A model generated the notes under the pieces. It saw nothing but the letters and a program-made list of their open reading frames with translations. It ran no database searches and was not told the origin of the DNA. The translations under genes and the position numbers were made by a program. Below are positions 42,485 through 64,000 of a DNA stretch of 64,000 nucleotides, piece by piece; within the stretch, counting starts at the first letter, position 1, and every line of letters begins with the position of its first letter. The DNA comes from Candidatus Pacearchaeota archaeon (GTDB lineage: Archaea; Nanobdellota; Nanobdellia; Pacearchaeales; UBA284), in contig CP061211.1 of NCBI GenBank assembly GCA_026016245.1, positions 29,449-93,448 of the forward strand. Direction: 5' to 3'.

Positions 42485-42564
42485 TTTTGCCCCTTCACGA
42501 CTCTGGATTTTTCCCTTCGGGGACGTTGCACTAAAATTTTACCCTTCAGAGAATATAACAGGAA

Positions 42565-42837: not shown

Positions 42838-42957
42838 GGCTTTTGTTTATGCTACTGTTATTAGTCTTCTTTCAGTAATTTTATTTCTTGCGCATAAATA
42901 ACTAGACAGAAAGTTTATATACTCCTTTTGTGCAGTAAAAAAAGGCTTTGGTAGAAG

Positions 42958-43863: not shown

Positions 43864-43896
43864 ATAATAATAGAATAAAAAATTAGCTAAGGGAAA

Positions 43897-44265: not shown

Positions 44266-44302
44266 AATATAAAAATAAAAAAAGAAAAATTAAATCTGGG
44301 GT

Positions 44303-44455: not shown

Positions 44456-44537
44456 TTTTTATTTAACCTCCTTTTGATTTAAATTGACCTTAGCCATTTA
44501 ATTAATAATTTAAGGCAGAACTATTATTTAAATCTTT

Positions 44538-44921: not shown

Positions 44922-45799
44922 TTTTTGAATTTTACCCTTATCTTACTATCTCTTATAGTAATCATAGCATATTTACCATACTTGGCTGCTCCTGGATTTA
45001 TGATAAGGGTTTTTCCTATTTTATCTTGTCCTTGGTTTTCATGCATGTGACCAGCCACACACAATAAAGGTTTATGCTTTTCTATTATTTTACGAGTAAG
45101 ATAAGAACCATAATGTTTTCCTTTAGCTAATTTATGTGCTCCTTTTGCCCTTATTAAATCAAGTTTTGTTTTGTATGGAACATTATGAGAAATAAAAATA
45201 AAATTTTTCCTATCTATTTTTTTTATTTCTTTCTCTATTCTCTTTTTTTGATTTCTATAATCTTTCAATCTTAATCTTAATTTATCTTTCATTCTAGGTT
45301 TAATACCATAATAAGAACTTCTTGGATAACCCACAAAATAAAGATTTTCAAAATTTACTAACTTATAGTCAGCAACTTTTATTTTATGCTTTTTAAGAAG
45401 AGGAGTAATTAAATCTTTTTTGTGCAATCTTCTTCTACGGGGGCTGGAAATTTCACCTATATCTCTATAAGTAGTTAGGTCTATATTTCCTGTGACTGAT
45501 ATTGCTGGTATATTTAAATTACCTATATAAACAATAACTTTCTTCCCATCTCTTAAATTTTTTTTTGTGAATTCTTTTTGTTTTTTCTTTCCTATTACTT
45601 GCCATAATGGTTTGTCTGTCCCATAAGAATATTTGAAAATAAGTTTTCTTTCATAAAGAGGACAGAAATCTCCCGGACTTATGATTAAATCTGGTTTTTC
45701 TTTTTTGATTACTTTTTTTATGAAATAAGGGATTTTTCCATGAAAGTCGCCAATTGCTAAGATCTTTATCTCTTTCATTTTGGTAAGTTTCTTGCCCAT
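44918..45799 (-). CDS. Calcineurin-like metallophosphoesterase
   Basis: GDFHG, PGDF, GN.D and GHMHE motifs in order. Confidence 0.7.
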   Translation of the reverse strand: MGKKLTKMKEIKILAIGDFHGKIPYFIKKVIKKEKPDLIISPGDFCPLYERKLIFKYSYGTDKPLWQVIGKKKQKEFTKKNLRDGKKVIVYIGNLNIPAISVTGNIDLTTYRDIGEISSPRRRRLHKKDLITPLLKKHKIKVADYKLVNFENLYFVGYPRSSYYGIKPRMKDKLRLRLKDYRNQKKRIEKEIKKIDRKNFIFISHNVPYKTKLDLIRAKGAHKLAKGKHYGSYLTRKIIEKHKPLLCVAGHMHENQGQDKIGKTLIINPGAAKYGKYAMITIRDSKIRVKFKK

Positions 45800-46653
45800 C
45801 TGTTGAGATTTTTTATTACTTTTTCTGGTGTTAATGATTCAAGTTTTTTAACAAGAGTTTTGTCTTGCAACATTTTTTCATTGAGTGGAACTGAGATGCC
45901 ATCCACTTCTTTTGGACTTTTCATATGCAGACTAAAAGGACATCTTGCTAGTTTTCCACTTGGTGTCTGGCTTGGATCTATTATTATTGTATTAAAAGTT
46001 TTTTCATGTCCCCCTTTTACTTTTATTTTTGTTTCTTTGCTGATTTTTTGAGCCCATCTTCCTGTGAAACTTTCCAAAGGCTTATCTTTTTTACAACTTA
46101 TGTATTTTTGATAGAAACTTTGTGGCACAGCCTTGTTTAGCATTAAATAGAGATGAAAACTCTTGCCTGTCCACATCAAGAAAGTTTTGAACTTGATTAA
46201 TTTTTTAAATTCTTTATCACTCCTTATTGTTTTTATTAAAGCTATGATAACTTGTTGGGTTTGCTGCGCTGTTGTTCCTTTTCCTCTATCAATATCAAAG
46301 AAAATTCTGTCTATTGGCTTGCCTTTTCCTTCCCTGTTGGTGGCATAGAAAAAATCTATTAGTTTGGCTTGAGGAAAATATCCCCATATCTTATCTTGCT
46401 GTTTTGTTATCTTGTCTCTTGCTCTTTTTAGATTAGTCTTACTTCTTAATTCTAAGAGTTTATTATCCACAACACTGAATTCTTCAATGTATAAAGGTTG
46501 GGCTTTGGAGCCTCTTTTTATGAAAAAACCAAAAGGAAGCCATACTTTTGATGCAATTTCCTTGTTTTTCAGAAAATTTTTTAGTTTATTTGCGATAGCA
46601 CTATAGTATGAAAGAACGTCAGTCTTGCCAAAAGGTTTGAGTATATCTTGCAT
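45775..46653 (-). CDS. Archaeo-eukaryotic primase (AEP) superfamily protein, resembling the DNA primase small subunit PriS
   Basis: Motif I FFDIDRG (D-x-D). Motif II WTGKSFHLY (sGxxGxH). Motif III IIDPSQT..KLARCPFSLHMKS. Confidence 0.5.
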   Translation of the reverse strand: MQDILKPFGKTDVLSYYSAIANKLKNFLKNKEIASKVWLPFGFFIKRGSKAQPLYIEEFSVVDNKLLELRSKTNLKRARDKITKQQDKIWGYFPQAKLIDFFYATNREGKGKPIDRIFFDIDRGKGTTAQQTQQVIIALIKTIRSDKEFKKLIKFKTFLMWTGKSFHLYLMLNKAVPQSFYQKYISCKKDKPLESFTGRWAQKISKETKIKVKGGHEKTFNTIIIDPSQTPSGKLARCPFSLHMKSPKEVDGISVPLNEKMLQDKTLVKKLESLTPEKVIKNLNRWARNLPK

Positions 46654-46675
46654 GTTTGTAAAATGTAAGAAACAT

Positions 46676-46689
46676 TTATAAATATATAC
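46676..46689 (+). promoter_or_regulatory. Putative archaeal TATA box for the rps12-rps7-fusA operon
   Basis: tttataaatatata lies about 40 nt upstream of the rps12 ATG, with a GAGGGT SD in between. Confidence 0.35.
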
Positions 46690-46723
46690 GAAAATTAACT
46701 TATATCAGATTATAGAGGGTAAA

Positions 46724-47146
46724 ATGGGAATGTTGAATGCTCGAAAAATTAAGAAGAAAAGGAAGAAGTTCCGTTGGTCTAGTCAGAAGTATAAAAAAAG
46801 ATTATTGAAATTAAAGGAAAAGTCTGACCCTCTTCAAGGCACAAGCCAGGCTAAAGGAATTGTTTTAGAAAAGGTGCAATTTGAAGCAAAGCAGCCAAAC
46901 TCTGCTATGAGAAAGTGTGTTAGAGTCCAGCTTATTAAGAATGGAAGGCAAGTCACTGCCTATGTTCCTGGCAATCTAGCTTCTAAGTTTATTGACGAGC
47001 ACGATGAGGTTATGATAGAAGCTATTGGAGGAAAACAAGGAAGAGCTAAAGGAGATATCCCTTGTGTTAGATATACTGTTATCAAGGTAAATGACCAGCC
47101 TCTTGCGATGTTAGTTAGAGGTAAGATAGAGAAAGGTGGAAGATAA
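46724..47146 (+). CDS. rps12: Ribosomal protein uS12
   Basis: [13 protein letters not shown]...[15 protein letters not shown]. Confidence 0.85.
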
Positions 47147-47741
47147 AGAGAATAAGATGAAAATTTTTGATTTATATGGTACTGAAGATGTGAAAATTGA
47201 GGATTTTGGTTTGAAGAGATATATTAATCTAGATATAAAACTAGTGTTAAAATCCAGAGGAAGATATCGTGAGAGATTTGGTAAGGCTAAGGTAAATATT
47301 GTTGAGAGGCTGATAAATATTGTTGCTGTTCCAGGTCATAGAGGAAAGAAACACAAAATTATGACCAAATCTTGTGGTAAGTATACAAAAGGAGCTAATA
47401 TTGTGCTAGGGGCTTTTAAGATTATTGAGGAAAGAACCAAAGAAAATCCTATTCAAGTTCTTGTTAGAGCTGTAGAGAAAGCTGCTCCAAGAGATGAAAT
47501 AACAACTATAGAGTATGGGGGTGCTAGATATCCTCAAGCAACTGATAGCGCACCTCTTAGAAGATTAAATGTTGCCTTAAAGCATATTGTTCATGGAGCT
47601 TACGATAAAGCTTTTGCCAAAAAAAAGAAGATTCCTGAAACACTTGCAAATGAAATCATTCTTGCGTCTAAAGGGACTAATGAGAGTTTTGCTATAACCA
47701 AAAAAATTGAAACAGAAAAACAAGCTGATTCTGCACGTTAA
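47136..47741 (+). CDS. rps7: Ribosomal protein uS7
   Basis: uS7 signature with archaeal length. The start may be the internal MKIFD. Confidence 0.8.
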
Positions 47742-52150: not shown

Positions 52151-52284
52151 GCTCCGGTAGCTCAGTGGCTAGAGCACACGGCTGTTACTACAGCTTTCTT
52201 TAGAAAAGAAAGCTCTAGGAGGTAAAGAAACTATTTTTGCCTGCAGAAACCGTGGGGTCGTAGGTTCGAATCCTATCCGGAGCG
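52151..52284 (+). tRNA. tRNA-Asn(GUU) with a 61-nt intron at the canonical 37/38 position
   Basis: Acceptor stem GCUCCGG/CCGGAGC. D arm GCUC...GAGC. Anticodon stem CACGG/CCGUG. Anticodon GTT at 52184-52186. Intron 52188-52248 has a GCTGT/ACAGC helix consistent with bulge-helix-bulge. T arm GTAGG-TTCGAAT-CCTAT. Confidence 0.75.
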
Positions 52285-52350: not shown

Positions 52351-52499
52351 GGGCCCGTAGCTCAGCCTGGTTTAGAGCACTACGCTGATAGCCTTACTAC
52401 AGCCTCTTAAAGGGGGTGATGGAACTGGAGCGCTTTGCGTTCCACTGTAGTTTGGTTCTAGAAACGTAGGGGTCATGGGTTCGAATCCCATCGGGCCCA
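52351..52499 (+). tRNA. tRNA-Ile(GAU) with a 73-nt intron at 37/38
   Basis: Acceptor stem GGGCCCG/CGGGCCC. Anticodon stem CUACG/CGUAG. Anticodon GAT at 52387-52389. Intron 52391-52463. T arm GGGTT... TTCGAAT. Confidence 0.75.
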
Positions 52500-52524
52500 C
52501 TCCAAACCAAATAAAAAGAGGATA

Positions 52525-53208
52525 ATGGACAAAAAAAAGAAAACAAGACTTTTGATAGCAGTTTGTGCTATGCTTTTTATGATTCTTGTATATTTTTTAT
52601 TTGCAATATTTGTTTTAAAAATTCCTATTTTTTGGAAAAAGACAATAACAGGTAAAGGTACTGTGGGTATAGTTTCTGTAACCATAGTGCCTGTATGTAC
52701 TTTTTATATTGGCCCTGGATGGAGTTTATTATCATTATGTGCAAATGCCACCAACAAATCTGTGGATGGTGTTTTTCAGAATATAAGTTATAGGTATGTG
52801 ATGAGATGGAACACAACAAGAATGGAGTATGATATTTATAGTCCAAGAGCTGTAAATAATCCTTTTGACAGTCTTGATGTTAATGAATCATATTTTGTTT
52901 TAGATTATTCTAGTGAGATATTTTCTGTATTTGGACCACCTAATTCTGATATGGATATAGCAATGGTTCAAGGATGGGATGCTCCTAGCTGGCCTTATCT
53001 TTTTGAGACTAATGTAACTAAATATATAGATTCAGCAAAACACAGGTATATGATGAAATGGGACCTCCCTGGTCAAGAATTTGACATCTATAGCCCTAGG
53101 GCAGCGCAGAATCCTTTCACAAAAATATATAAGGGAGAAGGCCAATTTATTTATGCATATCTAAATCACACACTTCAATATAATAAAACATATTTATTTG
53201 ATCCATAA
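52525..53208 (+). CDS. Secreted hypothetical protein with an internal duplicated motif of about 45 aa
   Basis: N-terminal TM/signal segment. The repeats are YRYVMRWNTTRMEYDIYSPRAVNNPF and HRYMMKWDLPGQEFDIYSPRAAQNPF. Confidence 0.4.
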   Translation: MDKKKKTRLLIAVCAMLFMILVYFLFAIFVLKIPIFWKKTITGKGTVGIVSVTIVPVCTFYIGPGWSLLSLCANATNKSVDGVFQNISYRYVMRWNTTRMEYDIYSPRAVNNPFDSLDVNESYFVLDYSSEIFSVFGPPNSDMDIAMVQGWDAPSWPYLFETNVTKYIDSAKHRYMMKWDLPGQEFDIYSPRAAQNPFTKIYKGEGQFIYAYLNHTLQYNKTYLFDP

Positions 53209-54928
53209 TTATAAAATGAGAATAAAAAAAGAGGTTTTGGTTTTAGTATTTCTAGTGTCTATTCTTTTTTTGAGCAGTGCTGTTAAGACAGATATTTTCA
53301 TGGGAACTTGTGAAGGTTTTGTTTTTTATCTAAATGGGACAAAAGTTACAGGAGCTAATGTTACTGTCTCTGTTGATGGCTGTACAACACCACCTGAAAA
53401 TTGTGTCAGAAGCGCTTTGACTGATTTAGGTGGCTATTATGTTATAGCTAATCTTAACTTGCAGCCTTATGGAAATGTTAGTGTTACAGCAAAAAAAGGA
53501 ACTTTTTACAGAACAAACACAGGACAGGCAGATGCATATCAAGCTGCTTTTGTTAATGTCACTCTATGTGAAGCTCCAACATCTCCATCACTTGTTCCTG
53601 TTCCAGACAGCCATTATCCTAACATAACTTTTTGGTTTAACTGGAGTTCTGGAACTTCTCCTTATGCTACTTTTGACCAGTGGAATTTTGATAATTCTGG
53701 TTGGATAACTGCCACTTCCCCCCAAAGCAAAACAAACCTTGCTTTTAAGAATTATACATGGAGTGTTAAAACATGTCTAAGCTCTTTGCCTTCTTGTTGC
53801 TCGCCTCCATCTACTGATACCTTTTCAGTTTACAACACACCCCCTTGTGTTCCAATCCTGACACCACAACCAGATACATATAGTAATACTGTTACTTTAA
53901 ATTGGACTTCAAATACCACTGCCCCATGTCCTGATGCTGATAATGATATAACATATTATAATTTCAGAATAGATGGAAATTTAACAACTCATGCTACTCC
54001 TCCTATGATCATAAGTGGTTTAGGTTATGGTTCTCACATATGGCAAGTACAAGAATGTGATCTATGGGAGTGCAGTGCTTGGGCATCTGACACTTTCAAT
54101 ATTGGAAATAACCCTTGCCCTTCTCCAAATCTAACAAATCAATCAGATACTTGTGTTAATCAAGTAACATTAAAATGGACTTCTGCTAATATAGATGGTG
54201 AGGGAGATGCTTGTCATGATGAATTTTATTTCCATGGCACTACTCAAAGTCCTGCAAGCTCGCCACAAACACTCATTCTAACAGATCAAGCTCTTTATAC
54301 ATGGCGTGTCAGGACTTGCGATAATTATTCAGCATGTTCTGATTGGGTTGAAGATAGTTTTATTTTCTGTACTTGCCCACCACTCATAGAAGAAGTTGAA
54401 GGAGAAAGAAGAGGCTATGTTGGTGGCTGTAGACTTCCAGCTGGCTATGAAATTGTTTTTTCAGTGCCCAGAGATGTTTATCCAGGAGAACATTTTAAGA
54501 TTGATGTGGGCTTTAAATACTTCCTATCTATCACTGACCTAATAATTGAAACTGAATCCCCTGAAGGTATAGAGGTAGAGACATTGAATTATTGTCCTGT
54601 TTCTGGAAATACTAATATGAATCTTAAATTAGAAGGAAGAGTTCCTGTTGATTTTAGGGAAGGGACTTATTATCTTTTTGTTAAGGGATATGATAGTAAA
54701 AAGCTTTTATTCAATAAACCTATAGAGCTGAAAGTTGTGAGCCCTCCTACTACAATTGTTAGCTTGTTAAGGCTGCCTTACTTGCCTTGCTGTATAATCT
54801 TGCTTATTTTGATAATATTGATACTTGCTGCAGCATCTATATGGGCTGGAAAGGAAGTTTACAAGAGAATGAAAGAAAAAGGAGAAAAAAGAACAAAGAT
54901 GCTGAAAAAAATAAAAGAAGGGATATAA
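53198..54928 (+). CDS. Surface protein with Ig/FN3-like repeats and a C-terminal TM anchor
   Basis: N-terminal signal peptide. Repeated LNWTSNTT- and LKWTSANI-type modules. C-terminal helix ILLILIILILAAASIWAG followed by a KR-rich tail. Confidence 0.5.
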   Translation: MIHNYKMRIKKEVLVLVFLVSILFLSSAVKTDIFMGTCEGFVFYLNGTKVTGANVTVSVDGCTTPPENCVRSALTDLGGYYVIANLNLQPYGNVSVTAKKGTFYRTNTGQADAYQAAFVNVTLCEAPTSPSLVPVPDSHYPNITFWFNWSSGTSPYATFDQWNFDNSGWITATSPQSKTNLAFKNYTWSVKTCLSSLPSCCSPPSTDTFSVYNTPPCVPILTPQPDTYSNTVTLNWTSNTTAPCPDADNDITYYNFRIDGNLTTHATPPMIISGLGYGSHIWQVQECDLWECSAWASDTFNIGNNPCPSPNLTNQSDTCVNQVTLKWTSANIDGEGDACHDEFYFHGTTQSPASSPQTLILTDQALYTWRVRTCDNYSACSDWVEDSFIFCTCPPLIEEVEGERRGYVGGCRLPAGYEIVFSVPRDVYPGEHFKIDVGFKYFLSITDLIIETESPEGIEVETLNYCPVSGNTNMNLKLEGRVPVDFREGTYYLFVKGYDSKKLLFNKPIELKVVSPPTTIVSLLRLPYLPCCIILLILIILILAAASIWAGKEVYKRMKEKGEKRTKMLKKIKEGI

Positions 54929-55761
54929 TGGCAAGGAAGAAAACTAAAAAGAAAAAGAGAAAAAGGAAAACAAGGAAGAAGCAAAAGAAAACAAAACAAA
55001 AAATCACCATTCTTGTTTTAAGTATAGTTATGATTGCTCTTATCTTATCTCTTGTTTTTACTATTCTTATTTCACTCTCCCTTTTTCCTGTTTCAGTGGT
55101 AGAGGAAGAGCCACAAAAGATAGAGTTCATGATAAAAAAACCATTGCTTAATTCAACCCAAGCTGTAACTTATTTGCCTGCTGTTGATAAGGAGGGCAAT
55201 GGTGTCATGACTGTGCTTGTGGTGGAAGCTGTTCCAGGAAGTGGGAGAACTTTAGTTGACATAGACAATTTATTGTTCTGGGCTGATACACAACATAGTA
55301 TTAGAATAGCTAAGAATGTGGCATCAGAAATAACAGAAGAGGATATTAATAATTATGATTTTGTTTATAATATTTATGCTAATGCTTCTGTCATAGGTAG
55401 GGAAAGTGCTGGAGCTGCGATAACCATAGCAACAATATCTATTTTAGAAAATAAAGAATTGAGGGATGATGTTGTTATAACAGGGACAGTGAATCATGAT
55501 GGCACTATAGGTCCTGTTAGTGCAATACTTCCTAAAGCAAAAATCTCTGGGGATGCTGGAGCAAAAATTTTCCTTGTCCCCCTACTTCAAGGTCAGGAGA
55601 TTATTTATGAGACAAGAGAACATTGTGAGAAATTTGGCCCGAATGAATTCTGTACAACAGAGCAAGTTCCAAGGAAAGTTAATATAAGTGAAGAGGCTGG
55701 TATAGAGGTTATAGAGGTTGGAACAATAGAAGAAGCTTTAGAATACTTTTTTGAAAAATAG
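54928..55761 (+). CDS. Membrane-anchored Lon-like (S16) peptidase-domain protein
   Basis: Start at MARKK (TAATG overlap with the upstream stop). KR-rich N-terminus, one TM helix, then a Lon proteolytic-domain-like segment (GRESAGAAITIATISIL, TGTVNHDGTIGPV, KAKISGDAGAK). Confidence 0.55.
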   Translation: MARKKTKKKKRKRKTRKKQKKTKQKITILVLSIVMIALILSLVFTILISLSLFPVSVVEEEPQKIEFMIKKPLLNSTQAVTYLPAVDKEGNGVMTVLVVEAVPGSGRTLVDIDNLLFWADTQHSIRIAKNVASEITEEDINNYDFVYNIYANASVIGRESAGAAITIATISILENKELRDDVVITGTVNHDGTIGPVSAILPKAKISGDAGAKIFLVPLLQGQEIIYETREHCEKFGPNEFCTTEQVPRKVNISEEAGIEVIEVGTIEEALEYFFEK

Positions 55762-55776
55762 AAATAAATAGATAAA

Positions 55777-56535
55777 ATGGTTGCTTTTGATATTATAGGA
55801 AATATAGCTATATTACACCTAGATAAAGTTACAAGACAAAATAAAAAATTTGCAAAGGTTCTATTAAAGAAACATAAGAATATCAAATCAGTTTATAGTC
55901 AGAGCAAAATATCTGGTAGGCTTAGAATTCCAAAGCTGAGATGGATTGCTGGCAAGAAGCAGACAGAAATACTACATAAGGAAAGTGGCTGTGTGCTAAA
56001 ACTTGATATCAACAAGTGTTATTTTAGTCCAAGACTAGGTACTGACAGATTAGAAATAGCAAAAAAAGTCAAAAGAGGTGAGAAAGTTCTTGTCATGTTT
56101 TCTGGAGTAGCACCTTATGGTATTGTAATAGGAAAAAAGAGCAAAGCAAAAGAAATTTATTGTATTGAAATTAGCAGGATGGCTTCAAAATATGCTAAAG
56201 AAAATGTCAGACTAAACAAATTGGCGAATATAAAAATCATCCAAGGAGATGTCAAGAGAATTATTCCTAAATTAAAGACAAAATTTGATAGAATTGTCAT
56301 GGCAAGACCTCAGTTAAAAGAGACTTTCTTAAAAGAGGCTTTCAAAGTTTCTAAACTTGGTACAATAATTCATTTTTATGATTTTGTAAAAGAACAAAAT
56401 TTGAAGGAAGTAGAATACAAGATAACGAGAGAAGCAGAAAAAGCAAAAAAGAAAATTAAGATAACAAAAATAAAAAAAGTCAGGGAGATAGCTCCTTACA
56501 AATATCATATTAGGATAGATTTTAGAATTAAGTAA
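55777..56535 (+). CDS. tRNA methyltransferase of the Trm5/Tyw2 (Met-10+) family
   Basis: FDIIGNIAIL start. Class I SAM fold VLVMFSGVAPYG. Confidence 0.55.
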   Translation: MVAFDIIGNIAILHLDKVTRQNKKFAKVLLKKHKNIKSVYSQSKISGRLRIPKLRWIAGKKQTEILHKESGCVLKLDINKCYFSPRLGTDRLEIAKKVKRGEKVLVMFSGVAPYGIVIGKKSKAKEIYCIEISRMASKYAKENVRLNKLANIKIIQGDVKRIIPKLKTKFDRIVMARPQLKETFLKEAFKVSKLGTIIHFYDFVKEQNLKEVEYKITREAEKAKKKIKITKIKKVREIAPYKYHIRIDFRIK

Positions 56536-56567
56536 ATTTTTAAAGTTATAAATCAAAATAAATAAAG

Positions 56568-57137
56568 ATGGCAAATATAAAAAGTGTCTTGAAAAAAACA
56601 TGGGATTTTTTGTGGCACAGCAATAGTATCTGGAGCTGGATTGTTGATTTAATTCTAGTTTTCCTTATAGTGAAATTTATTATATTCCCCTTATTTGGCT
56701 TGATTCTTTGCACTCCTTTGCCTTTTGTTATTATTGAGAGCCATAGTATGGAGCATGAGGGTAATTTTGATTCCTGGTTTTCCTTGCATGGCCAGTGGTA
56801 TTTAGATAATGACATAACAAAAGAACAAGTTAGAGAATGGTCCTGGAACAAAGGTCTTGATAAAGGCGACATTATAGTTGTGAAAGGAGAGGAAAGTTAT
56901 GAGCTAGGCAATGTTATTATTTTCAAAATACAGGAACAAGCAACCCCTATCATACATAGGATTGTGGAAGTAAAAAGTGAGGATAGTGAGATTGTTTTCG
57001 AAACAAAAGGTGATCATAATGATGGTCAGTGGCCTTATGAAGAAAATATAGGAGAAGAGCAGATTTTAGGCAAAGCAGCAGTCAGAATCCCGAAACTTGG
57101 CTGGGTTAAGCTTTTCTTTGTTGAACTTTTCAGGTAA
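56568..57137 (+). CDS. Signal peptidase I (archaeal Sec11-type, S26B)
   Basis: N-terminal TM helix. SHSMEH (Ser box), GDIIVV, HRIVEV and GDHNDG boxes. Confidence 0.6.
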   Translation: MANIKSVLKKTWDFLWHSNSIWSWIVDLILVFLIVKFIIFPLFGLILCTPLPFVIIESHSMEHEGNFDSWFSLHGQWYLDNDITKEQVREWSWNKGLDKGDIIVVKGEESYELGNVIIFKIQEQATPIIHRIVEVKSEDSEIVFETKGDHNDGQWPYEENIGEEQILGKAAVRIPKLGWVKLFFVELFR

Positions 57138-57215
57138 TTTATTTAATACCCCTCTAAAGTTTTAATTTCTAATAGAAAAGTTTTTAAATATAGAAACTAA
57201 AGTTAAAAGAATAAA

Positions 57216-57524
57216 ATGAAATTTTGTCCGAAGTGTGGGGCTATTTTAGTACAAAAAAAGAAGAATTTTTCTTGTCCTAAATGTGGTCATAGATCTAAAG
57301 AAAAAATAAAAATCATTAGTTCTGAAAAAGTTGGTAAGGTGACAAAGATAGATGTTTTACATGAGAAAGATTCCAGTGTTTGGCCAGTTGTTACAGAGAC
57401 CTGCCCTGAATGTGGTAATGATAAAGCATATTATTTTTCTGCTCAAATGCGATCAGGAGATGAAGCCGAGACCCAATTTTTCAAATGTGTTAGGTGTAAA
57501 AAAACTTGGAGAAAATATTCCTAA
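57216..57524 (+). CDS. tfs: Transcription factor S / RNAP subunit M (TFS)
   Basis: N-terminal Zn ribbon CPKCG...CPKCG. C-terminal TFIIS-type ribbon CPECGN...RSGDEAETQFFKCVRCKKTW. Confidence 0.8.
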   Translation: MKFCPKCGAILVQKKKNFSCPKCGHRSKEKIKIISSEKVGKVTKIDVLHEKDSSVWPVVTETCPECGNDKAYYFSAQMRSGDEAETQFFKCVRCKKTWRKYS

Positions 57525-57550
57525 CTTCTTTCTTTCCTAACTTATAAAAA

Positions 57551-57558
57551 TTTATAAA
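57551..57558 (+). promoter_or_regulatory. TATA box upstream of the tRNA-Lys-like gene
   Basis: tttataaa is centred about 27 nt upstream of 57582. Confidence 0.4.
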
Positions 57559-57581
57559 CAAATTTTCCTTCTTTTAGTAAT

Positions 57582-57690
57582 GGGTATATATCGAAGTCTG
57601 GCAGAGCACCTGGCTCTTAATAAGGGCATATCCCTTATCAACCCTAAAGGAGATACCAGGGTGTCGCGCGTTCGAATCGCGTCGGGCCCA
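57582..57690 (+). tRNA. tRNA-Lys(CUU)-like gene with a 35-nt intron at 37/38 and a degenerate 5' 13 nt
   Basis: The D loop through the 3' end is a perfect tRNA. It has AGTCTGGCA-GAGC, anticodon stem CCTGG/CCAGG, anticodon CTT at 57616-57618, T arm GCGCG-TTCGAAT-CGCGT, and 3' acceptor CGGGCCC plus A. The 5' 13 nt read GGGTATATATCGA, where GGGCCCGTAGCTC would be needed. Confidence 0.5.
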
Positions 57691-57697
57691 TAAAAAG

Positions 57698-58072
57698 ATG
57701 AAAAAGTATAATATTCTGAATGAAATTAATAAAGCAGTTGATTCTCATATATTGGTTATTGTTGAGGGCAAAAAAGACAAAAAAGCTCTTGAAAAGATTG
57801 GTTTTGAGAATATTTTTATTTTACATGGTAGACCTCTTTATGTTCAAATAGAAAAAATTTCTTCTGAGGTAAAAGAATGTATCATATTGACAGATTTTGA
57901 TAAAAAAGGCAAACAGTTGTATCATTGGCTAAAAAAAGAGCTTGTCAAGAATGGAGTTAGGATAAATGATAGATTAAGGAGAGTAATACTGGGAGAAAAG
58001 GTCAGCCATATTGAGGGCTTAGCGACTTTTATACAGAATCAGAATAGAAAAAAAGTCAGACTAATAGCTTGA
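57698..58072 (+). CDS. Small Toprim-domain protein (COG1658-like)
   Basis: ILVIVEGKKDKKAL...CIILTDFDKKG carries the Toprim E...DxD pattern. Confidence 0.55.
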   Translation: MKKYNILNEINKAVDSHILVIVEGKKDKKALEKIGFENIFILHGRPLYVQIEKISSEVKECIILTDFDKKGKQLYHWLKKELVKNGVRINDRLRRVILGEKVSHIEGLATFIQNQNRKKVRLIA

Positions 58073-58094
58073 TAAATCCTTTCTTTGTTTTTGT

Positions 58095-58361
58095 TTATTT
58101 TCTCTTTCTTTTGTGTTTCTTGTTGTTTGAGTTGATAAGTTTTAGACATTCATTACAGAGAAACATTCCTTCATGTTTTGATAGAATGTCAAAGCCGCCA
58201 CATTCCTCACATGTGCCTTCCTTGACCCATTTCTTCTCCATGAATTTAAGTTCCCTGAATTGCGCTTCTTTGAGTGCATCTGTGTCCTGCAAAAGATACC
58301 ATTCAGTGAATCTTGTCATTCCATTAGCCTCTTCATCTCGAATTAAATTTTTTCTTTTCAT
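58095..58361 (-). CDS. Small protein with a C-terminal Zn ribbon
   Basis: WVKEGTCEECGGFDILSKHEGMFLCNEC. Confidence 0.4.
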   Translation of the reverse strand: MKRKNLIRDEEANGMTRFTEWYLLQDTDALKEAQFRELKFMEKKWVKEGTCEECGGFDILSKHEGMFLCNECLKLINSNNKKHKRKRK

Positions 58362-58532
58362 TTTCCTTAGCCACAGGTATATAATAAAGAACCCATATAA
58401 ATACTTGAGCTATATAAAGTATATATGGTATATACCTCTAACAACTGCATGATAATAACATGAAAAAAACCATTATTTTTTAGAATATAAATATTTAAAA
58501 GCATATAGAGTATATATTTTCTACAAAGGCTA

Positions 58533-59495
58533 TTGGAAATGGAAACTAGAAAAATCATTAAATTTGGAAACTCATCTCACATAATTTCTATTCCAAAGTC
58601 CTGGATGAAAGAAAACAAACTAAAGAAAGGTGATGTAGTGTATCTAAAACAGAATTCTAATGGCGAACTTTTAGTATTACCAAAAGAAAGAAGTGATATT
58701 ATTTATAAAAAAGCTGTAATACATGCTACATCTAAAGATATGAAATTAATACAAAGAGAAATTCTTGCCGCATATATTAAAGGTTTCAATGTTTTGTCAG
58801 TAACTGCACCAAATATCAAGGAAAAAATTCCGGAAATAAAAAAGAATTTGAAACAATTCATTGGTATAGATATTATTGATAAAAATTCCAAAGAAATAGT
58901 TGCTGCCGATTTTCTTGATATTAACAATGTTTCAATTAAGAGCATAATCAGAAGAATAGATAATAATGTGAGAAGTATGTTTGAGGATCTTCAATTTTGT
59001 TTAGATAATCACAAAATCAATGAAAAAGAGTTTAATGAAATATACGAAACTGATGGTGATGTTAATAAATTCTACTTCCTTTTATGGAAATTAACAGTTT
59101 ATGGTCTTGAGAATCCCTCTATCTTGAATAAATGGGGTTTTAATTCAGTAGAGTTGACACATACTTGGTGGTTAGGTATGAATATGGAAAGAATTGGGGA
59201 TGAATTAAAAAGAATCGCCCGTGAATTAAAACACAAGAAATTTAATAGGACAACAATAAAAAAGATTTTAGAAATTTTTATAATCATTAAAAAAACTTAT
59301 CTTGATGTGATGCATTCCTATTACAAGAAAGATATCAAGCTTGCTTATAATGCATCTTCAAAAAAAGAAGATATTATGAAAAGAGGTGATTCTATTTCAG
59401 CTAATAATCTGAAGGTTGGAAAAATATGTGAGAAATTGAAATCAGCTCAAAGTTATATTCATAATATGGCTAAATGTACAATTTACTTTACTTAA
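58533..59495 (+). CDS. PhoU-family regulator with an N-terminal AbrB/SpoVT-like domain
   Basis: N-terminal KIIKFGNSSHIISIPKSW swapped-hairpin domain. Two PhoU-like helical repeats. Confidence 0.5.
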   Translation: MEMETRKIIKFGNSSHIISIPKSWMKENKLKKGDVVYLKQNSNGELLVLPKERSDIIYKKAVIHATSKDMKLIQREILAAYIKGFNVLSVTAPNIKEKIPEIKKNLKQFIGIDIIDKNSKEIVAADFLDINNVSIKSIIRRIDNNVRSMFEDLQFCLDNHKINEKEFNEIYETDGDVNKFYFLLWKLTVYGLENPSILNKWGFNSVELTHTWWLGMNMERIGDELKRIARELKHKKFNRTTIKKILEIFIIIKKTYLDVMHSYYKKDIKLAYNASSKKEDIMKRGDSISANNLKVGKICEKLKSAQSYIHNMAKCTIYFT

Positions 59496-59496
59496 A

Positions 59497-60795
59497 ATGT
59501 TGAAACCATCACCAAAGGAAAAAAGTTCGATGTTAGGAGTAGAAATGTCAAGAGAGGAACTAGAAGAACATCTCTCATCAATTCTCTCTAGATATCTTGC
59601 TGGAGTAAAGGTTGTTGGTGTAGATGTTGTTCCTATAGAGAGATCTATTTTCAATAGGAGACAGGGAAATAAAACCCTAACAAATAAGATTACTATTAAA
59701 GATTATACAGCATATCCCTCTCCTGGTTCTAATTTACATCTTCCTATGAATTTTATAATTAAAAAAGATAAAGACGAAGCACATTATGCTTTGAGAAGAA
59801 CAATATTAGATATATGCAACAAAGATCCACTTAGACCAGATAGATATAGTTCTTTTCTTGGTGCATGGGCAGGAACATTTCCTTATTGTTGGAGTGTAGG
59901 ATATGAACCTTTTGATAAATTAAAATTAACTCTTTCTACTTTTGTTTCTGAAAAATCACTCGATGAAAGGATGAAAGAGCTTGTATCAGGAATAAATAAT
60001 GGAAATTCAAAATTAATTGATGTTGAAATACTCAAGCAAGCAAATAATCCAAAAATAGTTATACATGAAAAATTATCTCTCTATGAAGGAGCAATAGTAA
60101 GAGATCTGAGAAGTAAAATAAGAGAACCTTCCTTAGAAGATTTAACTAAGATTTACATGAATTCCCTTGTGTTTTTATCTGGAAAAGATGCTAAAGGATG
60201 GCCTAAATCTTTGAAAAAAGAAACAGAAAAAGCTTTTAAAAATCTGGCCAAAAAATACTTAGCTGAAGATAACCTTAAAACCTTAGATCAGTTTGATGGC
60301 TATCCTTGGCATAATTTATTTGTATGTTTAGTAGATCCTGGAAGTGTAAAAAGGATTTCAAGAGGGATTGGTTTGGCTGCTCAGTGGTGTTTCCCAACTA
60401 TATTTAATTATTTCAAGAATCCAAAAACAACAATAAAAATTTTAACAGAAGATTATGTTAAAAAAAGAAAAAATTTTTTAGAAGAATTGCAAATAAAAGA
60501 TGCCCCAGAAATAAATCAGGAAGAATTGGAAAGAGCTATTTATTTTGGTGGTCTTTTTATAAATACTAGACATACTTCTGTAGTTGGGAATGGCTCTGAT
60601 GAAGACATAAAACCATATATAAATTCAATTAAGACATTATTCAAGATTTGTGAAAACATAGAATCAGGTAATACAAAAAAATTGAGAAAACCATATGAGG
60701 AATTTGGTTTATTTGAAAAAAAATCTCTTGTTGGAAAAGTTGCATCCACAGCAAAATTAACAGCAAAACAAGTAACTAGAGTAATGAATAGTTAA
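59497..60795 (+). CDS. Hypothetical protein
   Basis: 432-aa ORF. Translationally coupled to the PhoU-like gene (1-nt gap). Confidence 0.3.
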   Translation: MLKPSPKEKSSMLGVEMSREELEEHLSSILSRYLAGVKVVGVDVVPIERSIFNRRQGNKTLTNKITIKDYTAYPSPGSNLHLPMNFIIKKDKDEAHYALRRTILDICNKDPLRPDRYSSFLGAWAGTFPYCWSVGYEPFDKLKLTLSTFVSEKSLDERMKELVSGINNGNSKLIDVEILKQANNPKIVIHEKLSLYEGAIVRDLRSKIREPSLEDLTKIYMNSLVFLSGKDAKGWPKSLKKETEKAFKNLAKKYLAEDNLKTLDQFDGYPWHNLFVCLVDPGSVKRISRGIGLAAQWCFPTIFNYFKNPKTTIKILTEDYVKKRKNFLEELQIKDAPEINQEELERAIYFGGLFINTRHTSVVGNGSDEDIKPYINSIKTLFKICENIESGNTKKLRKPYEEFGLFEKKSLVGKVASTAKLTAKQVTRVMNS

Positions 60796-60796
60796 A

Positions 60797-61375
60797 TCAC
60801 TCTTCCCATTGTCCTGATTCTTTTCTCCTACAATTTGCGCAAAGATATCTGTTACCTATCTTATAAAGTAAATCAAAAACACCACATTCATGGCAAGGTC
60901 CCTCTCTCACCCAACGAAATTCATCCACTGCCCTGATACGCTTCCATTTCTCTTCTTCCTCCGCAATCTTAACATTCTGGAAAGCAATATCAAAAAGATC
61001 TGGCTGTATTTTCAGAATGTCCTTCTCTGTAAGAAAGCCAATAACCTTATGATTAACAAGAACAGGAAGCCATCTTACTCTTTTCTTTTTCATAGTCACA
61101 AGAGCATCAAAAATGTCCTTCCCAGGCTTGATTCCATGAACTTTCTTTGTCATTATCTTATTTACCTTGGTCTTTTTTTTATTGAGACTTTTGGCCATGG
61201 CCCTTACTAAATCACCTTCTGTAACTATTCCTTTCAACATTTGATCAGATCTGACAATAACAGAACCAACTCCCTTTTTAACCATAATTTTAGCACATTC
61301 AACCATAGTTATATCTGGCTTTATTGACACAAATTTCCTGGTCATGACATCACCTACTTTAATCCCGACTTTCAT
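60797..61375 (-). CDS. Tandem CBS-domain protein with a C-terminal Zn ribbon
   Basis: Two CBS motifs (GDVMTRKFVSI..., and a second CBS motif). C-terminal WVREGPCHECGVFDLLYKIGNRYLCANC. Confidence 0.6.
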   Translation of the reverse strand: MKVGIKVGDVMTRKFVSIKPDITMVECAKIMVKKGVGSVIVRSDQMLKGIVTEGDLVRAMAKSLNKKKTKVNKIMTKKVHGIKPGKDIFDALVTMKKKRVRWLPVLVNHKVIGFLTEKDILKIQPDLFDIAFQNVKIAEEEEKWKRIRAVDEFRWVREGPCHECGVFDLLYKIGNRYLCANCRRKESGQWEE

Positions 61376-61397
61376 AAACGCAGATAGTTATTTTGTT

Positions 61398-63203
61398 TTA
61401 AATAGTTTTTGTTAAGAAATCTTTTATTTCTGGAAGATGGGGAATTAGTATTTTACTCCAAGTTTCATAATTATATTCATAAGATATTTCTTTAAGTATA
61501 TCTATGGGGATAAAATCACTTTTTACAATAGAAGATTCTTTTGGTCTTACATTTCCATCTGTTTGGATAGCATAAATAAATCCAAAATGAACTCTATCTA
61601 CTGGTTTTTCACTTGCCATTAATGTTCCAACAAGAACTGGTTCTGATGATTGTTTTTCAAATTTTACTTCTTCTTCATGAACTTCACGTTTTACACAATT
61701 TAACAAATAGTCTGGCCTGTCAGATTCATTTATGTGACCTCCAACACCAATAGAATACTTACCAAAAAGTCTAGAATCTCCATATGCTTTTATATCCTTT
61801 GTTCTAACATAATAAAAAACTTCATCTTTATTATTATCTTTTCTAAAAATTAAAACATAAGGCACTATTTGTAATATCTCTTGATCTTCCTCACAATCAT
61901 ATCTTAATGAAAACATAGGAGCCGCTTGTACGAGTTTTTCCAAATTCTTTGCTTTGGTTGGAGTTATAATTTCAAAACCTTCTTTAGAGTCACGAAATTC
62001 AAGCAGTTCTCTTTTTGGTAAAGCTAATACTTTTCTGTTTAATTTTTTGTAGTCTTTCCCAAGTTTCGGGAAATCTACTTTTTTAAAATTATTTGATAGC
62101 CTAGGTCCTATTTGTCCATTATAACTAGAACCTTTGTCTTTTCCATAACATTTTTTTGGAGTTAAACCACGGAAAATCTGTAGTTCGCTTATAGCCATTC
62201 CATCTCTCAAAATCATTGGAGAAATTTCTTCAGATCTAACCTCAAAAACAGCACATCCATTAAAACCATTATCAAAAAAACCTGCAAAATGTAACGGCCC
62301 ATGTATGCCAACATGTGAATGGTCTTTTAATTCAGCGCTTAGGTTTGATGGAATTTTAATATATTCTTTTGAAGATAATAAATAACACTTTCCTGGTTTG
62401 ATTTCTACTGTGTTATTTTTCATGATTATAGGCTCAAAATATTCTTCAACATTATATCCCTCTTTTTCCTTAATATCTATGGGAATAGGGTTATTCCTTG
62501 CTTTAAATCCAACTATCCCAGAAGTTTGTTTTCCTGAAATATCTAAAGTTAATCTTAATCCATCATGAATTTGTGGATTTTTTATCTCTTTTAAAGAATC
62601 TTCCTCTATAGAGTAAAGTATAGGCTCTTTTTGATATTCTTTTTCTAGTTCTTTATCTGTTAATTTATTTTCATTTCCTATGAGAAATCTTAGTTGATTA
62701 AAAGTCATTCCTGGCTGTATTATTAAATTAAAAGCAAGAGGTTGTAAGAGCAGCCAGAGTTCTAATTTTTTATTGCTAACTGTAACTTCATCAAAACAAT
62801 CATGATAATCTGTGAGTAGCCTGTTTAAAATAAAAACTCTCCCTCTACTGCTTTTTGGAGAAGATTTGACTCTAAAATTCCCAGGTAGCATAAGTTTTTC
62901 TTCCAGAGGCAAGAGATAGCTATACCCTTTTTTTATTTCAAATTCTTTATCTATAGTATGTTTTTGACGTCTTTTGTTAGGAAGTTGTAATAAACTTCTA
63001 TAAACAGGCTCATAATTGCTTGGCCTAAAAAGACCACCACTTTCTGTATCAATAACATAAACTTCATCTCCTATCCTTGGTTCAAAAGAAGATGGTTGAA
63101 TTCTATTTTCTAAATCTTCATTTGAAGTAGAAATAATTTCTTCTTCCACAGCTTGTTTAATTTCAAAATCCACTAAACATCTAGAAGTTGATTTGTCTAA
63201 CAT
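61398..63203 (-). CDS. Fusion protein with dCTP-deaminase/dUTPase-fold domain(s) and a C-terminal NUDIX hydrolase
   Basis: AGFFDNGFNGCAVFEV resembles the DCD motif AGFIDPGFEGQITLEL. The C-terminal Nudix box is GGHINESDRPDYLLNCVKREVHEEE. Confidence 0.5.
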   Translation of the reverse strand: MLDKSTSRCLVDFEIKQAVEEEIISTSNEDLENRIQPSSFEPRIGDEVYVIDTESGGLFRPSNYEPVYRSLLQLPNKRRQKHTIDKEFEIKKGYSYLLPLEEKLMLPGNFRVKSSPKSSRGRVFILNRLLTDYHDCFDEVTVSNKKLELWLLLQPLAFNLIIQPGMTFNQLRFLIGNENKLTDKELEKEYQKEPILYSIEEDSLKEIKNPQIHDGLRLTLDISGKQTSGIVGFKARNNPIPIDIKEKEGYNVEEYFEPIIMKNNTVEIKPGKCYLLSSKEYIKIPSNLSAELKDHSHVGIHGPLHFAGFFDNGFNGCAVFEVRSEEISPMILRDGMAISELQIFRGLTPKKCYGKDKGSSYNGQIGPRLSNNFKKVDFPKLGKDYKKLNRKVLALPKRELLEFRDSKEGFEIITPTKAKNLEKLVQAAPMFSLRYDCEEDQEILQIVPYVLIFRKDNNKDEVFYYVRTKDIKAYGDSRLFGKYSIGVGGHINESDRPDYLLNCVKREVHEEEVKFEKQSSEPVLVGTLMASEKPVDRVHFGFIYAIQTDGNVRPKESSIVKSDFIPIDILKEISYEYNYETWSKILIPHLPEIKDFLTKTI

Positions 63204-63335
63204 TTTAATCCCAAACTGATTTATTTTAAATAGATTATGTGGGAATAAAATATATATTACAAAATTAGAGAAAACTTTTTAAATCTGCTAAGCAAGGGTT
63301 ATATAGGTTAAGGGTATAATTATATTTTTGAAAAA

Positions 63336-63623
63336 ATGGCTGAACAAAGAGTAAAAATTGAAGGAACAAATGATTTAGATGTTAGTTATGCTTTAGCTTA
63401 TCTAGCTGGTTTCCGAAAAGGCACTCTTGTAACACCTAGATATCCCGGTAAACAAGGATATAGAGAAGTTATGGTGTTTCATAAAGATACAATTGCAAAA
63501 GATCCAGATTTATTCCTACTTACACAATCTCCTGATATAGTGGTAAGTGCTTTGCTTAATAGTGAATATTTAATAGATTTTAAGAAAGAAAAAGTTGATC
63601 CAGCTTTGAAGAAATTAGATTAG
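63336..63623 (+). CDS. Hypothetical small protein
   Basis: 95-aa ORF upstream of the thermosome gene. Confidence 0.3.
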   Translation: MAEQRVKIEGTNDLDVSYALAYLAGFRKGTLVTPRYPGKQGYREVMVFHKDTIAKDPDLFLLTQSPDIVVSALLNSEYLIDFKKEKVDPALKKLD

Positions 63624-63641
63624 CTTGTTCCCAAAAATAAA

Positions 63642-64000
63642 ATGGCTGAAAAACAACCAATATATGTATTGCCTGAAAACATCCAAAGAATGATAGGTAG
63701 AGATGCTCAGAGAAACAATATTTTGGCAGCTAGGCTTGTAGCAGATGCAATAAAAACCACACTAGGACCTAAAGGAATGGACAAGATGTTAGTAGATAGT
63801 ATAGGTGATATTACAGTTACAAATGATGGTGTTACTATTTTGGATGAGATGGAGATTGAACATCCTGCTGCAAAGATGATGGTTGAAATTGCAAAAACTC
63901 AAGAAGATGAGGTAGGAGACGGAACTACAACAGCTGTAATTATCGCAGGAAAACTTCTTGAAAATGCTGAAAAACTTTTAGATGAGAAGATACATCCTAC
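63642..64000 (+). CDS. ths: Thermosome (group II chaperonin) subunit, 3'-truncated at the window edge
   Basis: [37 protein letters not shown]...TNDGVTIL...[10 protein letters not shown]. Confidence 0.85.

What the first reader, a model, noticed from the sequence alone, without database searches (positions are those of the whole stretch)
57582..57690. tRNA-Lys(CUU)-like gene whose 5' 13 nt cannot form the acceptor and D stems
From the D loop through the 3' end, including a 35-nt canonical intron, the gene is a flawless tRNA. Its 3' acceptor strand CGGGCCC-A is identical to that of tRNA-Ile. The first 13 nt read GGGTATATATCGA, whereas GGGCCCGTAGCTC would be required. That is the correct length but gives mismatches at acceptor-stem positions 4-7 and no D-stem pairing. 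Three explanations are possible. It could be a tRNA pseudogene. It could be a gene whose 5' portion has been overwritten by promoter-like TATA sequence. Or it could be a split or trans-spliced tRNA whose 5' exon is encoded elsewhere, as is known in Nanoarchaeota.
Basis: seen in the sequence. Interest (0 to 1): 0.65.

Follow-up and report, generated by a model that had tools for sequence, protein, structure and literature searches.

The report
Ordinary tRNA-Lys gene, garbled 10-base block
This is an ordinary intron-containing lysine tRNA gene of a Pacearchaeota archaeon in which ten bases at the 5' end are scrambled only in this record; an independent assembly of the same clone and all relatives read the normal sequence, so it is not a split tRNA.

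Summary
Window 57582-57690 (+) is a tRNA-Lys(CUU) gene with a 35-nt intron at 37/38. Its first 13 nt, GGGTATATATCGA, break 2 acceptor pairs and 3 of 4 D-stem pairs (Rfam tRNA 16.7 bits; gathering score 29).

The anomaly is private to this record. Six Logan contigs assembled from run DRR463595 match about 46.5 kb of the window with no isolated SNP. One of them, L001, matches 52352-57584 at 100%, then reads taatGGGCCCGTAGCTCAGTC. All 7 differences fall in a 10-nt block, 57585-57594.

Two relatives with the same gene order (TYW2, hypothetical, TFS, tRNA, Toprim) carry a contiguous, canonical, intron-containing tRNA-Lys(CUU) at this spot (55.6 and 57 bits). One of them has a compensatory acceptor-stem change.

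Nothing supports a 5' piece supplied in trans. No sequence in the window is complementary to the 13-mer, and the only other GGGCCCGTAGCTC is the start of an intact tRNA-Ile.

My best reading is a local sequence or assembly error in the record (about 0.55). The alternative is a very recent inactivating lesion in that strain (about 0.38). A split tRNA is not supported. Interest is low.

The parts
57542..57565 (+). A/T-rich promoter block TTATAAAAATTTATAAACAAATTT, with TATA-like boxes at 57542-57549 and 57551-57558. It ends 17 nt upstream of the tRNA start.
   Evidence: Read from the sequence. The same 24-mer lies upstream of the orthologous tRNA-Lys in relative L013 (2821-2844), although the neighbouring Toprim protein is only 68% identical. 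Its role as an archaeal TATA/BRE promoter is an inference. So a promoter exists separately from the aberrant TATATAT block.
57582..57619 (+). 5' exon of tRNA-Lys(CUU), tRNA positions 1-37; anticodon CTT at 57616-57618
   Evidence: Rfam tRNA alignment and alignment to orthologues.
57585..57594 (+). Aberrant 10-nt block TATATATCGA where CCCGTAGCTC is expected (7 substitutions). It breaks acceptor pairs 5:68 and 7:66 and D-stem pairs 10:25, 12:23 and 13:22.
   Evidence: Logan contig L001 is 100% identical to window 52352-57584 and to 57595-57598, and differs only here. All five unpaired cells in alignment A1 belong to the window row. The 20-mer GGGTATATATCGAAGTCTGG is absent from viral contigs and metagenome contigs.
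57620..57654 (+). 35-nt intron at the canonical 37/38 position. The central 4-bp helix pairs C32-U35 (57614-57617) with GGAG (57649-57652). Three-nt bulges U36 A37|A and A U|A38 carry the splice sites. An intron hairpin forms between 57621-57626 and 57632-57637.
   Evidence: Read from the sequence. The hairpin is also predicted by ViennaRNA. The same central helix (CUCU with AGAG) is kept in the 48-nt introns of L009 and L013. The helix on the intron side of the 5' bulge is not the strict BHB form, so I read the motif as relaxed.
57655..57690 (+). 3' exon: positions 38-73, T arm GCGCG/TTCGAAT/CGCGT, acceptor 3' strand CGGGCCC, discriminator A. CCA is not encoded.
57216..57524 (+). Upstream neighbour: transcription factor S (TFIIS-type zinc ribbon)
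   Evidence: Pfam PF01096, E = 2.7e-17. It holds the same position in relatives L009 and L013.
57698..58072 (+). Downstream neighbour: small Toprim-domain protein, identical to UZE94039.1 (MAG: Candidatus Pacearchaeota archaeon, contig of 710,724 nt)
   Evidence: Pfam Toprim_4; identity to the NCBI protein; same position in relatives.
52351..52499 (+). tRNA-Ile(GAU) with a 74-nt intron. It is the only other GGGCCCGTAGCTC in the window, so the only conceivable in-window donor of a 5' piece.
   Evidence: Rfam 54.9 bits and pattern search. It is a complete gene with its own D loop and no sequence complementary to the aberrant 13-mer.

Best explanation
The locus is an ordinary, contiguous, intron-containing tRNA-Lys(CUU) gene of a Pacearchaeota (DPANN) archaeon.

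Inferred mechanism, from general knowledge of archaeal tRNA maturation:
- It is transcribed from the A/T-rich TATA-type promoter about 25-40 nt upstream.
- The ends are trimmed.
- The 35-nt intron is cut out at a bulge-helix-bulge-like motif between positions 37 and 38 by the splicing endonuclease, and the exons are ligated.
- CCA is added.

The 10-nt block 57585-57594 (TATATATCGA instead of CCCGTAGCTC) is not an evolved feature. It exists only in this record. Most likely it is a local sequence, assembly or gap-closing error (or another alteration of the record), sitting at a spot where the short-read assembly graph breaks.

Shown: the block is private to the record, and the canonical sequence exists in reads of the same clone and in relatives. 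Inferred: that the block is an error rather than a real mutation.
For: 1. Same clone, canonical sequence.
- Six Logan contigs from run DRR463595 cover about 46.5 kb of the window with no isolated SNP.
- L001 is 100% identical over window 52352-57584. It then reads taatGGGCCCGTAGCTCAGTC against the window's taatGGGTATATATCGAAGTC. That is 7 substitutions, all within 10 nt.
- The last 31-mers of L001 join 14 nt of unique upstream sequence to the canonical 5' end. From my knowledge of how Logan contigs are built from 31-mers seen in reads, such reads must exist.
- Seven coordinated errors that happen to recreate the exact sequence required by base pairing cannot be chance.

2. A 7-of-10 mismatch block in an otherwise identical 46 kb looks like a random replacement, not point mutation.

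3. The block lies at a break in the independent assembly. L001 ends at 57598, 4 nt after the block, and the next contig L002 starts at 57662.

4. Relatives.
- L009 (GCA_964396475.1) and L013 (GCA_964493265.1) have the same gene order.
- Both carry a contiguous tRNA-Lys(CUU) with an intron at 37/38, scoring 55.6 and 57 bits.
- L013 has GGGTCCG paired with CGGACCC and L006 has A7 paired with T66. These are compensatory changes, and they show the 5' strand pairs in cis.
- Four more distant DPANN MAGs also have GGGCCC(G/A)TAGCTC directly joined to the D loop.

5. All 5 unpaired cells among 147 in the alignment are in the window row.

6. AAG makes up 24% of Lys codons in the window's long ORFs, so the gene is expected to be under selection.
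Against: - Assemblers rarely invent 10 bases, so some reads with this block may exist.
- I could not see reads or the GenBank record itself.
- The Logan assembly breaks inside this very gene, at 57598 and 57662. That could also mean the read set is heterogeneous here.
- The record differs from Logan at a second complex site: a SNP at 63584 plus a 22-nt deletion after 63607. The record may therefore represent a slightly different sub-strain with real differences.
- It is not known whether DRR463595 is the read set from which the record was assembled.
Confidence: 0.55

Rival explanations
1. The block is a real, very recent multi-nucleotide mutation (or minor allele) in the sequenced strain. The tRNA-Lys(CUU) gene is then a fresh pseudogene. 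Its transcript cannot form the acceptor and D stems, and AAG codons would be read by tRNA-Lys(UUU) or by another copy elsewhere in the genome.
For: - The sequence is in the record, and assemblers seldom create such a block de novo.
- The independent assembly breaks at 57598 and 57662, inside this gene, which fits heterogeneity among the reads.
- A second complex difference between the record and Logan lies at 63584-63607.
- With the block, only the first four acceptor pairs form in the predicted fold (the full 7-bp stem does not), and the minimum free energy rises from -36.4 to -25.4 kcal/mol for the spliced RNA. The allele would therefore be non-functional. That outcome is ordinary for a pseudogene.
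Against: - There are no isolated SNPs in about 46.5 kb between the record and Logan. A 7-substitution block would then be the main divergence, an odd mutational spectrum.
- The canonical allele is the one taken by the only Logan contig that carries the TFS gene.
- AAG is 24% of Lys codons.
- The 26-mer of this tRNA found no second copy attributable to this genome in genome contigs. This is weak evidence, because I do not know whether the genome is in that collection.
- The window holds no nearby template for the new 10-mer.
Confidence: 0.38
2. Split or trans-spliced tRNA. The 3' 96 nt are a separate gene, and a 13-nt 5' exon GGGCCCGTAGCTC is supplied from elsewhere. The source could be a stand-alone mini-gene or the identical 5' end of tRNA-Ile at 52351. 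The pieces would be joined by the splicing endonuclease and ligase after leader-trailer annealing.
For: - tRNA-Ile, 5.2 kb upstream, begins with exactly the 13 nt needed.
- DPANN and Nanoarchaeota are lineages in which disrupted tRNA genes are known (PMC4033280).
Against: - The same clone has the contiguous canonical gene at this very locus.
- Syntenic orthologues are contiguous, with cis-compensatory acceptor changes.
- The aberrant 13 nt occupy the exon's own positions, with the same length, GGG kept and T8 A9 kept. They do not form a leader.
- No sequence in the window is complementary to the 13-mer at up to 2 mismatches, and no leader-exon BHB can be drawn.
- The tRNA-Ile 5' end runs on into its own intact gene.
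- No known split tRNA has an exon this short. I know of split sites at about 25/26, 29/30 and 37/38 (own knowledge).
Confidence: 0.02
3. A partial 3' tRNA copy left at the edge of an integrated virus or plasmid (an att-site duplicate), with the intact gene at the other end of the element.
For: Partial tRNA copies covering the 3' portion are typical att remnants in archaea (own knowledge). The Logan contigs break at the tRNA, as they would at a repeat.
Against: - The sequence upstream of the block is the same chromosomal context as in L001, identical for 5,233 nt up to 57584, so there is no junction with foreign DNA.
- The flanking genes are housekeeping genes (TYW2, TFS, Toprim) in the same order as in relatives.
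- The window has no second copy of the 3' 25-mer.
- Viral contigs has no match to the 3' part.
- The Pfam scan of the ten neighbouring ORFs (52525-60795) returned no integrase family.
Confidence: 0.01

Closest known systems
Archaeal intron-containing tRNA genes with a bulge-helix-bulge intron at position 37/38 (common in DPANN and other archaea)
   Same: - Cloverleaf from the D loop to the 3' end.
- Intron exactly at 37/38.
- A 4-bp central helix between anticodon-loop positions 32-35 and the intron's 3' end, with 3-nt bulges at both splice sites.
- A/T-rich promoter upstream, and CCA not encoded.
- Syntenic orthologues in L009 and L013 have the same build.
   Different: In this record only, 10 nt of the 5' exon are replaced, so the acceptor and D stems cannot form. 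The intron is 35 nt here and 48 nt in the two relatives, and its sequence differs.
Split tRNA genes of Nanoarchaeum equitans and split or tri-split tRNAs of Caldivirga maquilingensis (reviewed in PMC4033280)
   Same: Only superficial: a 3' tRNA portion that lacks a matching 5' strand next to it, in an archaeon of a lineage with many disrupted tRNA genes.
   Different: - Split tRNAs have separate genes whose leader and trailer are complementary and form a relaxed BHB at the leader-exon boundary (PMC4033280).
- Here there is no complementary partner.
- The odd bases sit in the exon's own register.
- The same clone and its relatives have the contiguous gene.
tRNA pseudogenes and local consensus or assembly errors in metagenome-assembled genomes
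   Same: A short block of substitutions that destroys conserved pairing. It is private to one record and sits at a break point of an independent short-read assembly.
   Different: Nothing distinguishes it from this class with the data available. Only the reads can tell an error from a real lesion.

Membership tests
Canonical archaeal intron-containing tRNA gene | Full cloverleaf: acceptor, D, anticodon and T stems all pair | tested here: not met
   In the window as given, Rfam scores 16.7 bits against a gathering score of 29, and 5 of 21 pairs are broken, all in the first 13 nt. The criterion is met once the block is read as in Logan contig L001. It is also met by orthologues L009 (55.6 bits) and L013 (57 bits).
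Canonical archaeal intron-containing tRNA gene | Intron at 37/38 flanked by a bulge-helix-bulge motif | tested here: met
   Read from the sequence. The central helix is C32-G, U33-A, C34-G, U35-G (57614-57617 with 57649-57652). The 3-nt bulges are U36 A37|A and A U|A38. The inner helix is relaxed and is replaced by an intron hairpin. The central helix is conserved in L009 and L013.
Canonical archaeal intron-containing tRNA gene | Orthologues at the same genomic position in related genomes | tested here: met
   The gene order TYW2, hypothetical, TFS, tRNA-Lys(CUU), Toprim is found in L009, L010, L012, L013, L014 and L015.
Split (trans-spliced) tRNA | A separate gene for the missing piece, with a trailer complementary to the leader of this piece | tested here: not met
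   Within the window, the only GGGCCCGTAGCTC is the start of the intact tRNA-Ile. No complement of GGGTATATATCGA occurs at up to 2 mismatches apart from the site itself. The rest of the 710,724-nt contig could not be searched.
Split (trans-spliced) tRNA | [quoted passage not shown] | tested here: not met
   The aberrant bases occupy positions 4-13 of the exon register, with G1-G3, T8 and A9 kept. There is no extra leader and no partner strand with which to draw a BHB.
Split (trans-spliced) tRNA | No contiguous gene for the same tRNA at this locus in the same organism | tested here: not met
   Logan contig L001 shows the canonical 5' end (positions 1-17) joined directly to this locus's unique upstream sequence in the same clone. 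The middle of the gene, 57599-57661, is not covered by L001 or L002.
Split (trans-spliced) tRNA | Mature joined RNA detected | not testable with these tools
   This needs small-RNA sequencing or a northern blot.
att-site partial tRNA copy of an integrated element | Foreign DNA abutting the partial copy, a second copy of the tRNA segment, and an integrase nearby | tested here: not met
   The upstream flank is identical to the chromosomal context in L001 and syntenic in relatives. The window has no second copy of the 3' part, and viral contigs has no match. The Pfam scan of the ten neighbouring ORFs returned no integrase family.
tRNA pseudogene (real lesion) | The lesion is present in the organism's DNA (read support) | not testable with these tools
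The only independent assembly of the clone reads the canonical sequence.

The most novel reading that the evidence does not exclude
The 10-nt block is real in the organism, and the cell still makes a working tRNA-Lys(CUU). It would do so by joining the 3' 96-nt transcript to a 13-nt 5' exon supplied in trans, for example one shared with the tRNA-Ile transcript that begins with the identical GGGCCCGUAGCUC. That would be the shortest trans-spliced tRNA exon known, and the first split tRNA in Pacearchaeota.
Probability: 0.01. Interest if true: 0.85.

Novelty: not a real feature. Interest (0 to 1): 0.06.

Why it matters
If the exotic reading were true, it would extend split tRNAs to a new archaeal lineage and to an unprecedented split site. 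The evidence says otherwise. The gene is ordinary, and the oddity is a 10-base block private to one record.

The practical value is as a quality flag. The deposited Pacearchaeota genome probably carries a local error in its tRNA-Lys(CUU) gene, or else a very recent knockout. Automated tRNA counts for this genome will wrongly report the isoacceptor as missing.

Tried and rejected
- **ARAGORN on the window.** It found nothing. This is uninformative, because as run here it also misses the intact intron-bearing orthologues.
- **In-window donor of the 5' exon or a complementary trailer.** I found only the intact tRNA-Ile start and no complement of the 13-mer.
- **Second copy of the tRNA 3' part in the window.** None.
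- **Nearby template for the new 10-mer, as template switching or gene conversion would need.** None.
- **Genome-contig scan with the D-loop-to-anticodon 26-mer.** It returned four other DPANN MAGs, all canonical, and not the window's own genome. That collection's single scan is now used, so I could not search the rest of the 710,724-nt contig for another tRNA-Lys or a 5' mini-gene.
- **Metagenome-contig scans.** The species-specific exon-intron junction and the aberrant 20-mer both gave 0 hits. The species seems absent from that collection, so these results say little.
- **Viral-contig scans.** The 3' part and the aberrant 20-mer both gave 0 hits.
- **Exact look-up of the 37-aa ORF that the block opens, 57580-57693.** Not on record.
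- **Literature search for DRR463595 and for the genome's origin.** Nothing useful.
- **Minimum-free-energy folding.** I used it only to show that the acceptor stem is lost.

Full report
**1. The observation**

Window 57582-57690 (+) reads GGGTATATATCGA AGTCTGGCA GAGC A CCTGG CTCTTA [35-nt intron] A CCAGG GTGTC GCGCG TTCGAAT CGCGT CGGGCCC A.

- From the D loop onward it is a clean tRNA-Lys(CUU). The anticodon is at 57616-57618.
- The intron occupies 57620-57654, between positions 37 and 38.
- The 3' acceptor strand and discriminator, CGGGCCC-A, are the same as in tRNA-Ile at 52351-52499.
- The Rfam tRNA model aligns end to end over exactly these coordinates but scores only 16.7 bits (gathering score 29). 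It flags non-standard pairs at acceptor positions 5 and 7 and at three of four D-stem pairs.
- T4 and T6 could still wobble-pair with G69 and G67.
- ARAGORN's empty result is uninformative. As run here it also misses the intact intron-bearing orthologues.

**2. Where the window comes from**

- The neighbours are archaeal housekeeping genes: a TRM5/TYW2 methyltransferase (55777-56535), transcription factor S (57216-57524) and a small Toprim protein (57698-58072).
- The Toprim protein is identical to UZE94039.1, 'MAG: Candidatus Pacearchaeota archaeon', on a contig of 710,724 nt.
- That record itself could not be fetched.

**3. The decisive comparison**

An exact look-up of the TFS protein returned one contig, L001, from the Logan assembly of run DRR463595.

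- L001 equals window 52352-57584 at 100% identity over 5,233 nt.
- It then ends ...cttttagtaatGGGCCCGTAGCTCAGTC, where the window has ...cttttagtaatGGGTATATATCGAAGTC.
- All 7 differences lie in 57585-57594. The 4 bases after the block agree again.

Five further Logan contigs from the same run cover other parts of the window:

| Contig | Window range | Identity |
|---|---|---|
| L016 | 1-11505 | 100% |
| L008 | 20596-31223 | 100% |
| L017 | 31202-37613 | 100% |
| L007 | 40873-47269 | 100% |
| L002 | 57662-64000 | identical except one complex site |

The complex site in L002 is a SNP at 63584 plus a 22-nt deletion in the window after 63607.

Over about 46.5 kb there is therefore not a single isolated SNP, so the run and the record sample the same clone. 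To my knowledge, Logan contigs are built from 31-mers seen repeatedly in the reads. The last 31-mers of L001 join 14 nt of unique upstream sequence to the canonical 5' end. Reads with the canonical gene at this locus must therefore exist. Seven coordinated errors that recreate the exact functional sequence are not credible.

**4. Relatives**

I looked up homologues of the Toprim protein and fetched their contigs.

- L009 (GCA_964396475.1; Toprim 70% identical) and L013 (GCA_964493265.1; 68% identical) have the same gene order: TYW2, hypothetical, TFS, tRNA, Toprim.
- Between TFS and Toprim, both carry a contiguous tRNA-Lys(CUU) with a 48-nt intron at 37/38. They score 55.6 and 57 bits.
- L009 begins GGGCCCGTAGCTC.
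- L013 begins GGGTCCGTAGCTC and ends CGGACCCA, a compensatory C-G to U-A change at pair 4:69.
- Four more distant DPANN MAGs found with the 26-mer AGTCTGGCAGAGCACCTGGCTCTTAA also have GGGCCC(G/A)TAGCTC joined directly to the D loop. L006 has A7 paired with T66.
- In an alignment of the spliced sequences, 96.6% of cells pair. All five unpaired cells belong to the window row.
- The covariation shows that the 5' strand is selected to pair in cis with the 3' strand of the same gene.

**5. The intron and the promoter**

- Read from the sequence, C32-U35 (57614-57617) pair with GGAG (57649-57652). The 3-nt bulges U36 A37|A and A U|A38 carry the two splice sites. This is the normal geometry for a 37/38 intron.
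- The helix on the intron side is replaced by a hairpin (57621-57626 with 57632-57637). I therefore read the motif as relaxed rather than strict.
- The same central helix, CUCU with AGAG, is kept in L009 and L013, although the rest of the intron differs.
- A 24-nt A/T-rich block with TATA-like boxes (57542-57565) is identical upstream of the L013 orthologue.
- The gene thus has its own promoter. The 'TATATAT' inside the exon is not needed to explain transcription.

**6. The split-tRNA idea**

Split tRNAs are defined by separate genes whose complementary leader sequences anneal and form a relaxed BHB at the leader-exon boundary (PMC4033280). Here:

- The odd bases sit in the exon's own register, with the same length and with G1-G3, T8 and A9 retained. 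They are not a leader.
- Nothing in the window is complementary to them at up to 2 mismatches.
- The only GGGCCCGTAGCTC is the start of the intact tRNA-Ile.
- The same clone and its relatives have the contiguous gene.

The idea is not supported.

An att-site remnant is also excluded:

- The upstream flank is the same chromosomal sequence as in L001 and is syntenic in relatives.
- The window has no second copy of the 3' part.
- Viral contigs has no match.

**7. What the block is**

Two ordinary explanations remain.

(a) An error in the record.
- The clone is otherwise identical.
- The change is a 7-of-10 block typical of a replaced stretch rather than of point mutation.
- It lies at a spot where the independent short-read assembly breaks. 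L001 ends at 57598 and L002 starts at 57662, so any assembler, gap closer or curator had to bridge this tRNA gene.
- AAG is 24% of Lys codons, which argues for selection on the gene.

(b) A real, very recent lesion or minor allele.
- Assemblers seldom invent bases.
- The graph break could reflect two alleles.
- The record has a second complex difference from Logan at 63584-63607.

I put (a) at about 0.55 and (b) at about 0.38. With the block, only the first four acceptor pairs form in the predicted fold, and the minimum free energy of the spliced RNA rises from -36.4 to -25.4 kcal/mol. Allele (b) would therefore simply be a dead gene. Only the reads can decide between the two.

**8. Verdict**

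This is an ordinary, syntenically conserved, intron-containing tRNA-Lys(CUU) gene. The striking feature is a 10-nt block private to this record. It is not an evolved or functional peculiarity. Interest is low.

Noticed in passing
window 63584-63623: This is the second and only other discrepancy with the Logan assembly of the same clone. The window has G where Logan has T at 63584, and it lacks 22 nt (AGTCAACGAAGGTAAACTAGAA) after 63607. The frameshift shortens the small ORF just upstream of the thermosome gene from 108 aa (L002 5675-6001) to 95 aa (window 63336-63623). Like the tRNA block, it is a complex local difference in an otherwise identical sequence.
   Followed up: partly
window 52151-52284 and 52351-52499; L009 232-305 and 608-686: tRNA-Asn(GUU) and tRNA-Ile(GAU) in the window carry unusually long insertions at the anticodon loop, 62 and 74 nt. 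Their syntenic orthologues in relative L009 have no intron. So introns were gained or lost recently within this Pacearchaeota group. The introns were not analysed for BHB motifs or embedded small RNAs.
   Followed up: partly
window 52352, 57598, 57662: The Logan contigs break at both tRNA loci. L001 starts at the second base of tRNA-Ile and ends 17 nt into tRNA-Lys. L002 starts 30 nt before the first base after the tRNA-Lys 3' end. With k = 31, this pattern would fit the tRNA-Lys gene plus about 13 nt upstream (57569-57691) being a branch point in the read graph. The cause could be a second copy, another genome in the sample sharing the tRNA, or two alleles. It is unresolved.
   Followed up: no
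window 57580-57693 (+): The aberrant block removes an in-frame TAG (canonical ATG GGC CCG TAG). This opens a 37-codon ORF running through the whole tRNA gene and its intron to the TAA just after it. No such protein is on record. It is probably a coincidence.
   Followed up: yes
window 40779-40902: A perfect tandem repeat of a 42-nt unit, 3.0 copies, 100% identical. Logan contig L007 ends inside it, at 40873.
   Followed up: no
window 42958-43863 (+) and neighbours, about 41000-47200: A 301-aa protein with PAS and GGDEF (diguanylate-cyclase-type) domains lies next to a response-regulator receiver protein. Nearby genes carry Fic, PhageMetallopep and LigD Prim-Pol-like domains (Pfam labels precomputed for Logan contig L007). 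To my knowledge GGDEF proteins are uncommon in archaea, so it may be worth a look.
   Followed up: no
L002 7899-8029 (about 1.56 kb beyond the window's end): Another intron-bearing tRNA (131 nt, 54.6 bits) lies just outside the window. So four of the four tRNA genes seen in or next to this stretch carry introns.
   Followed up: no
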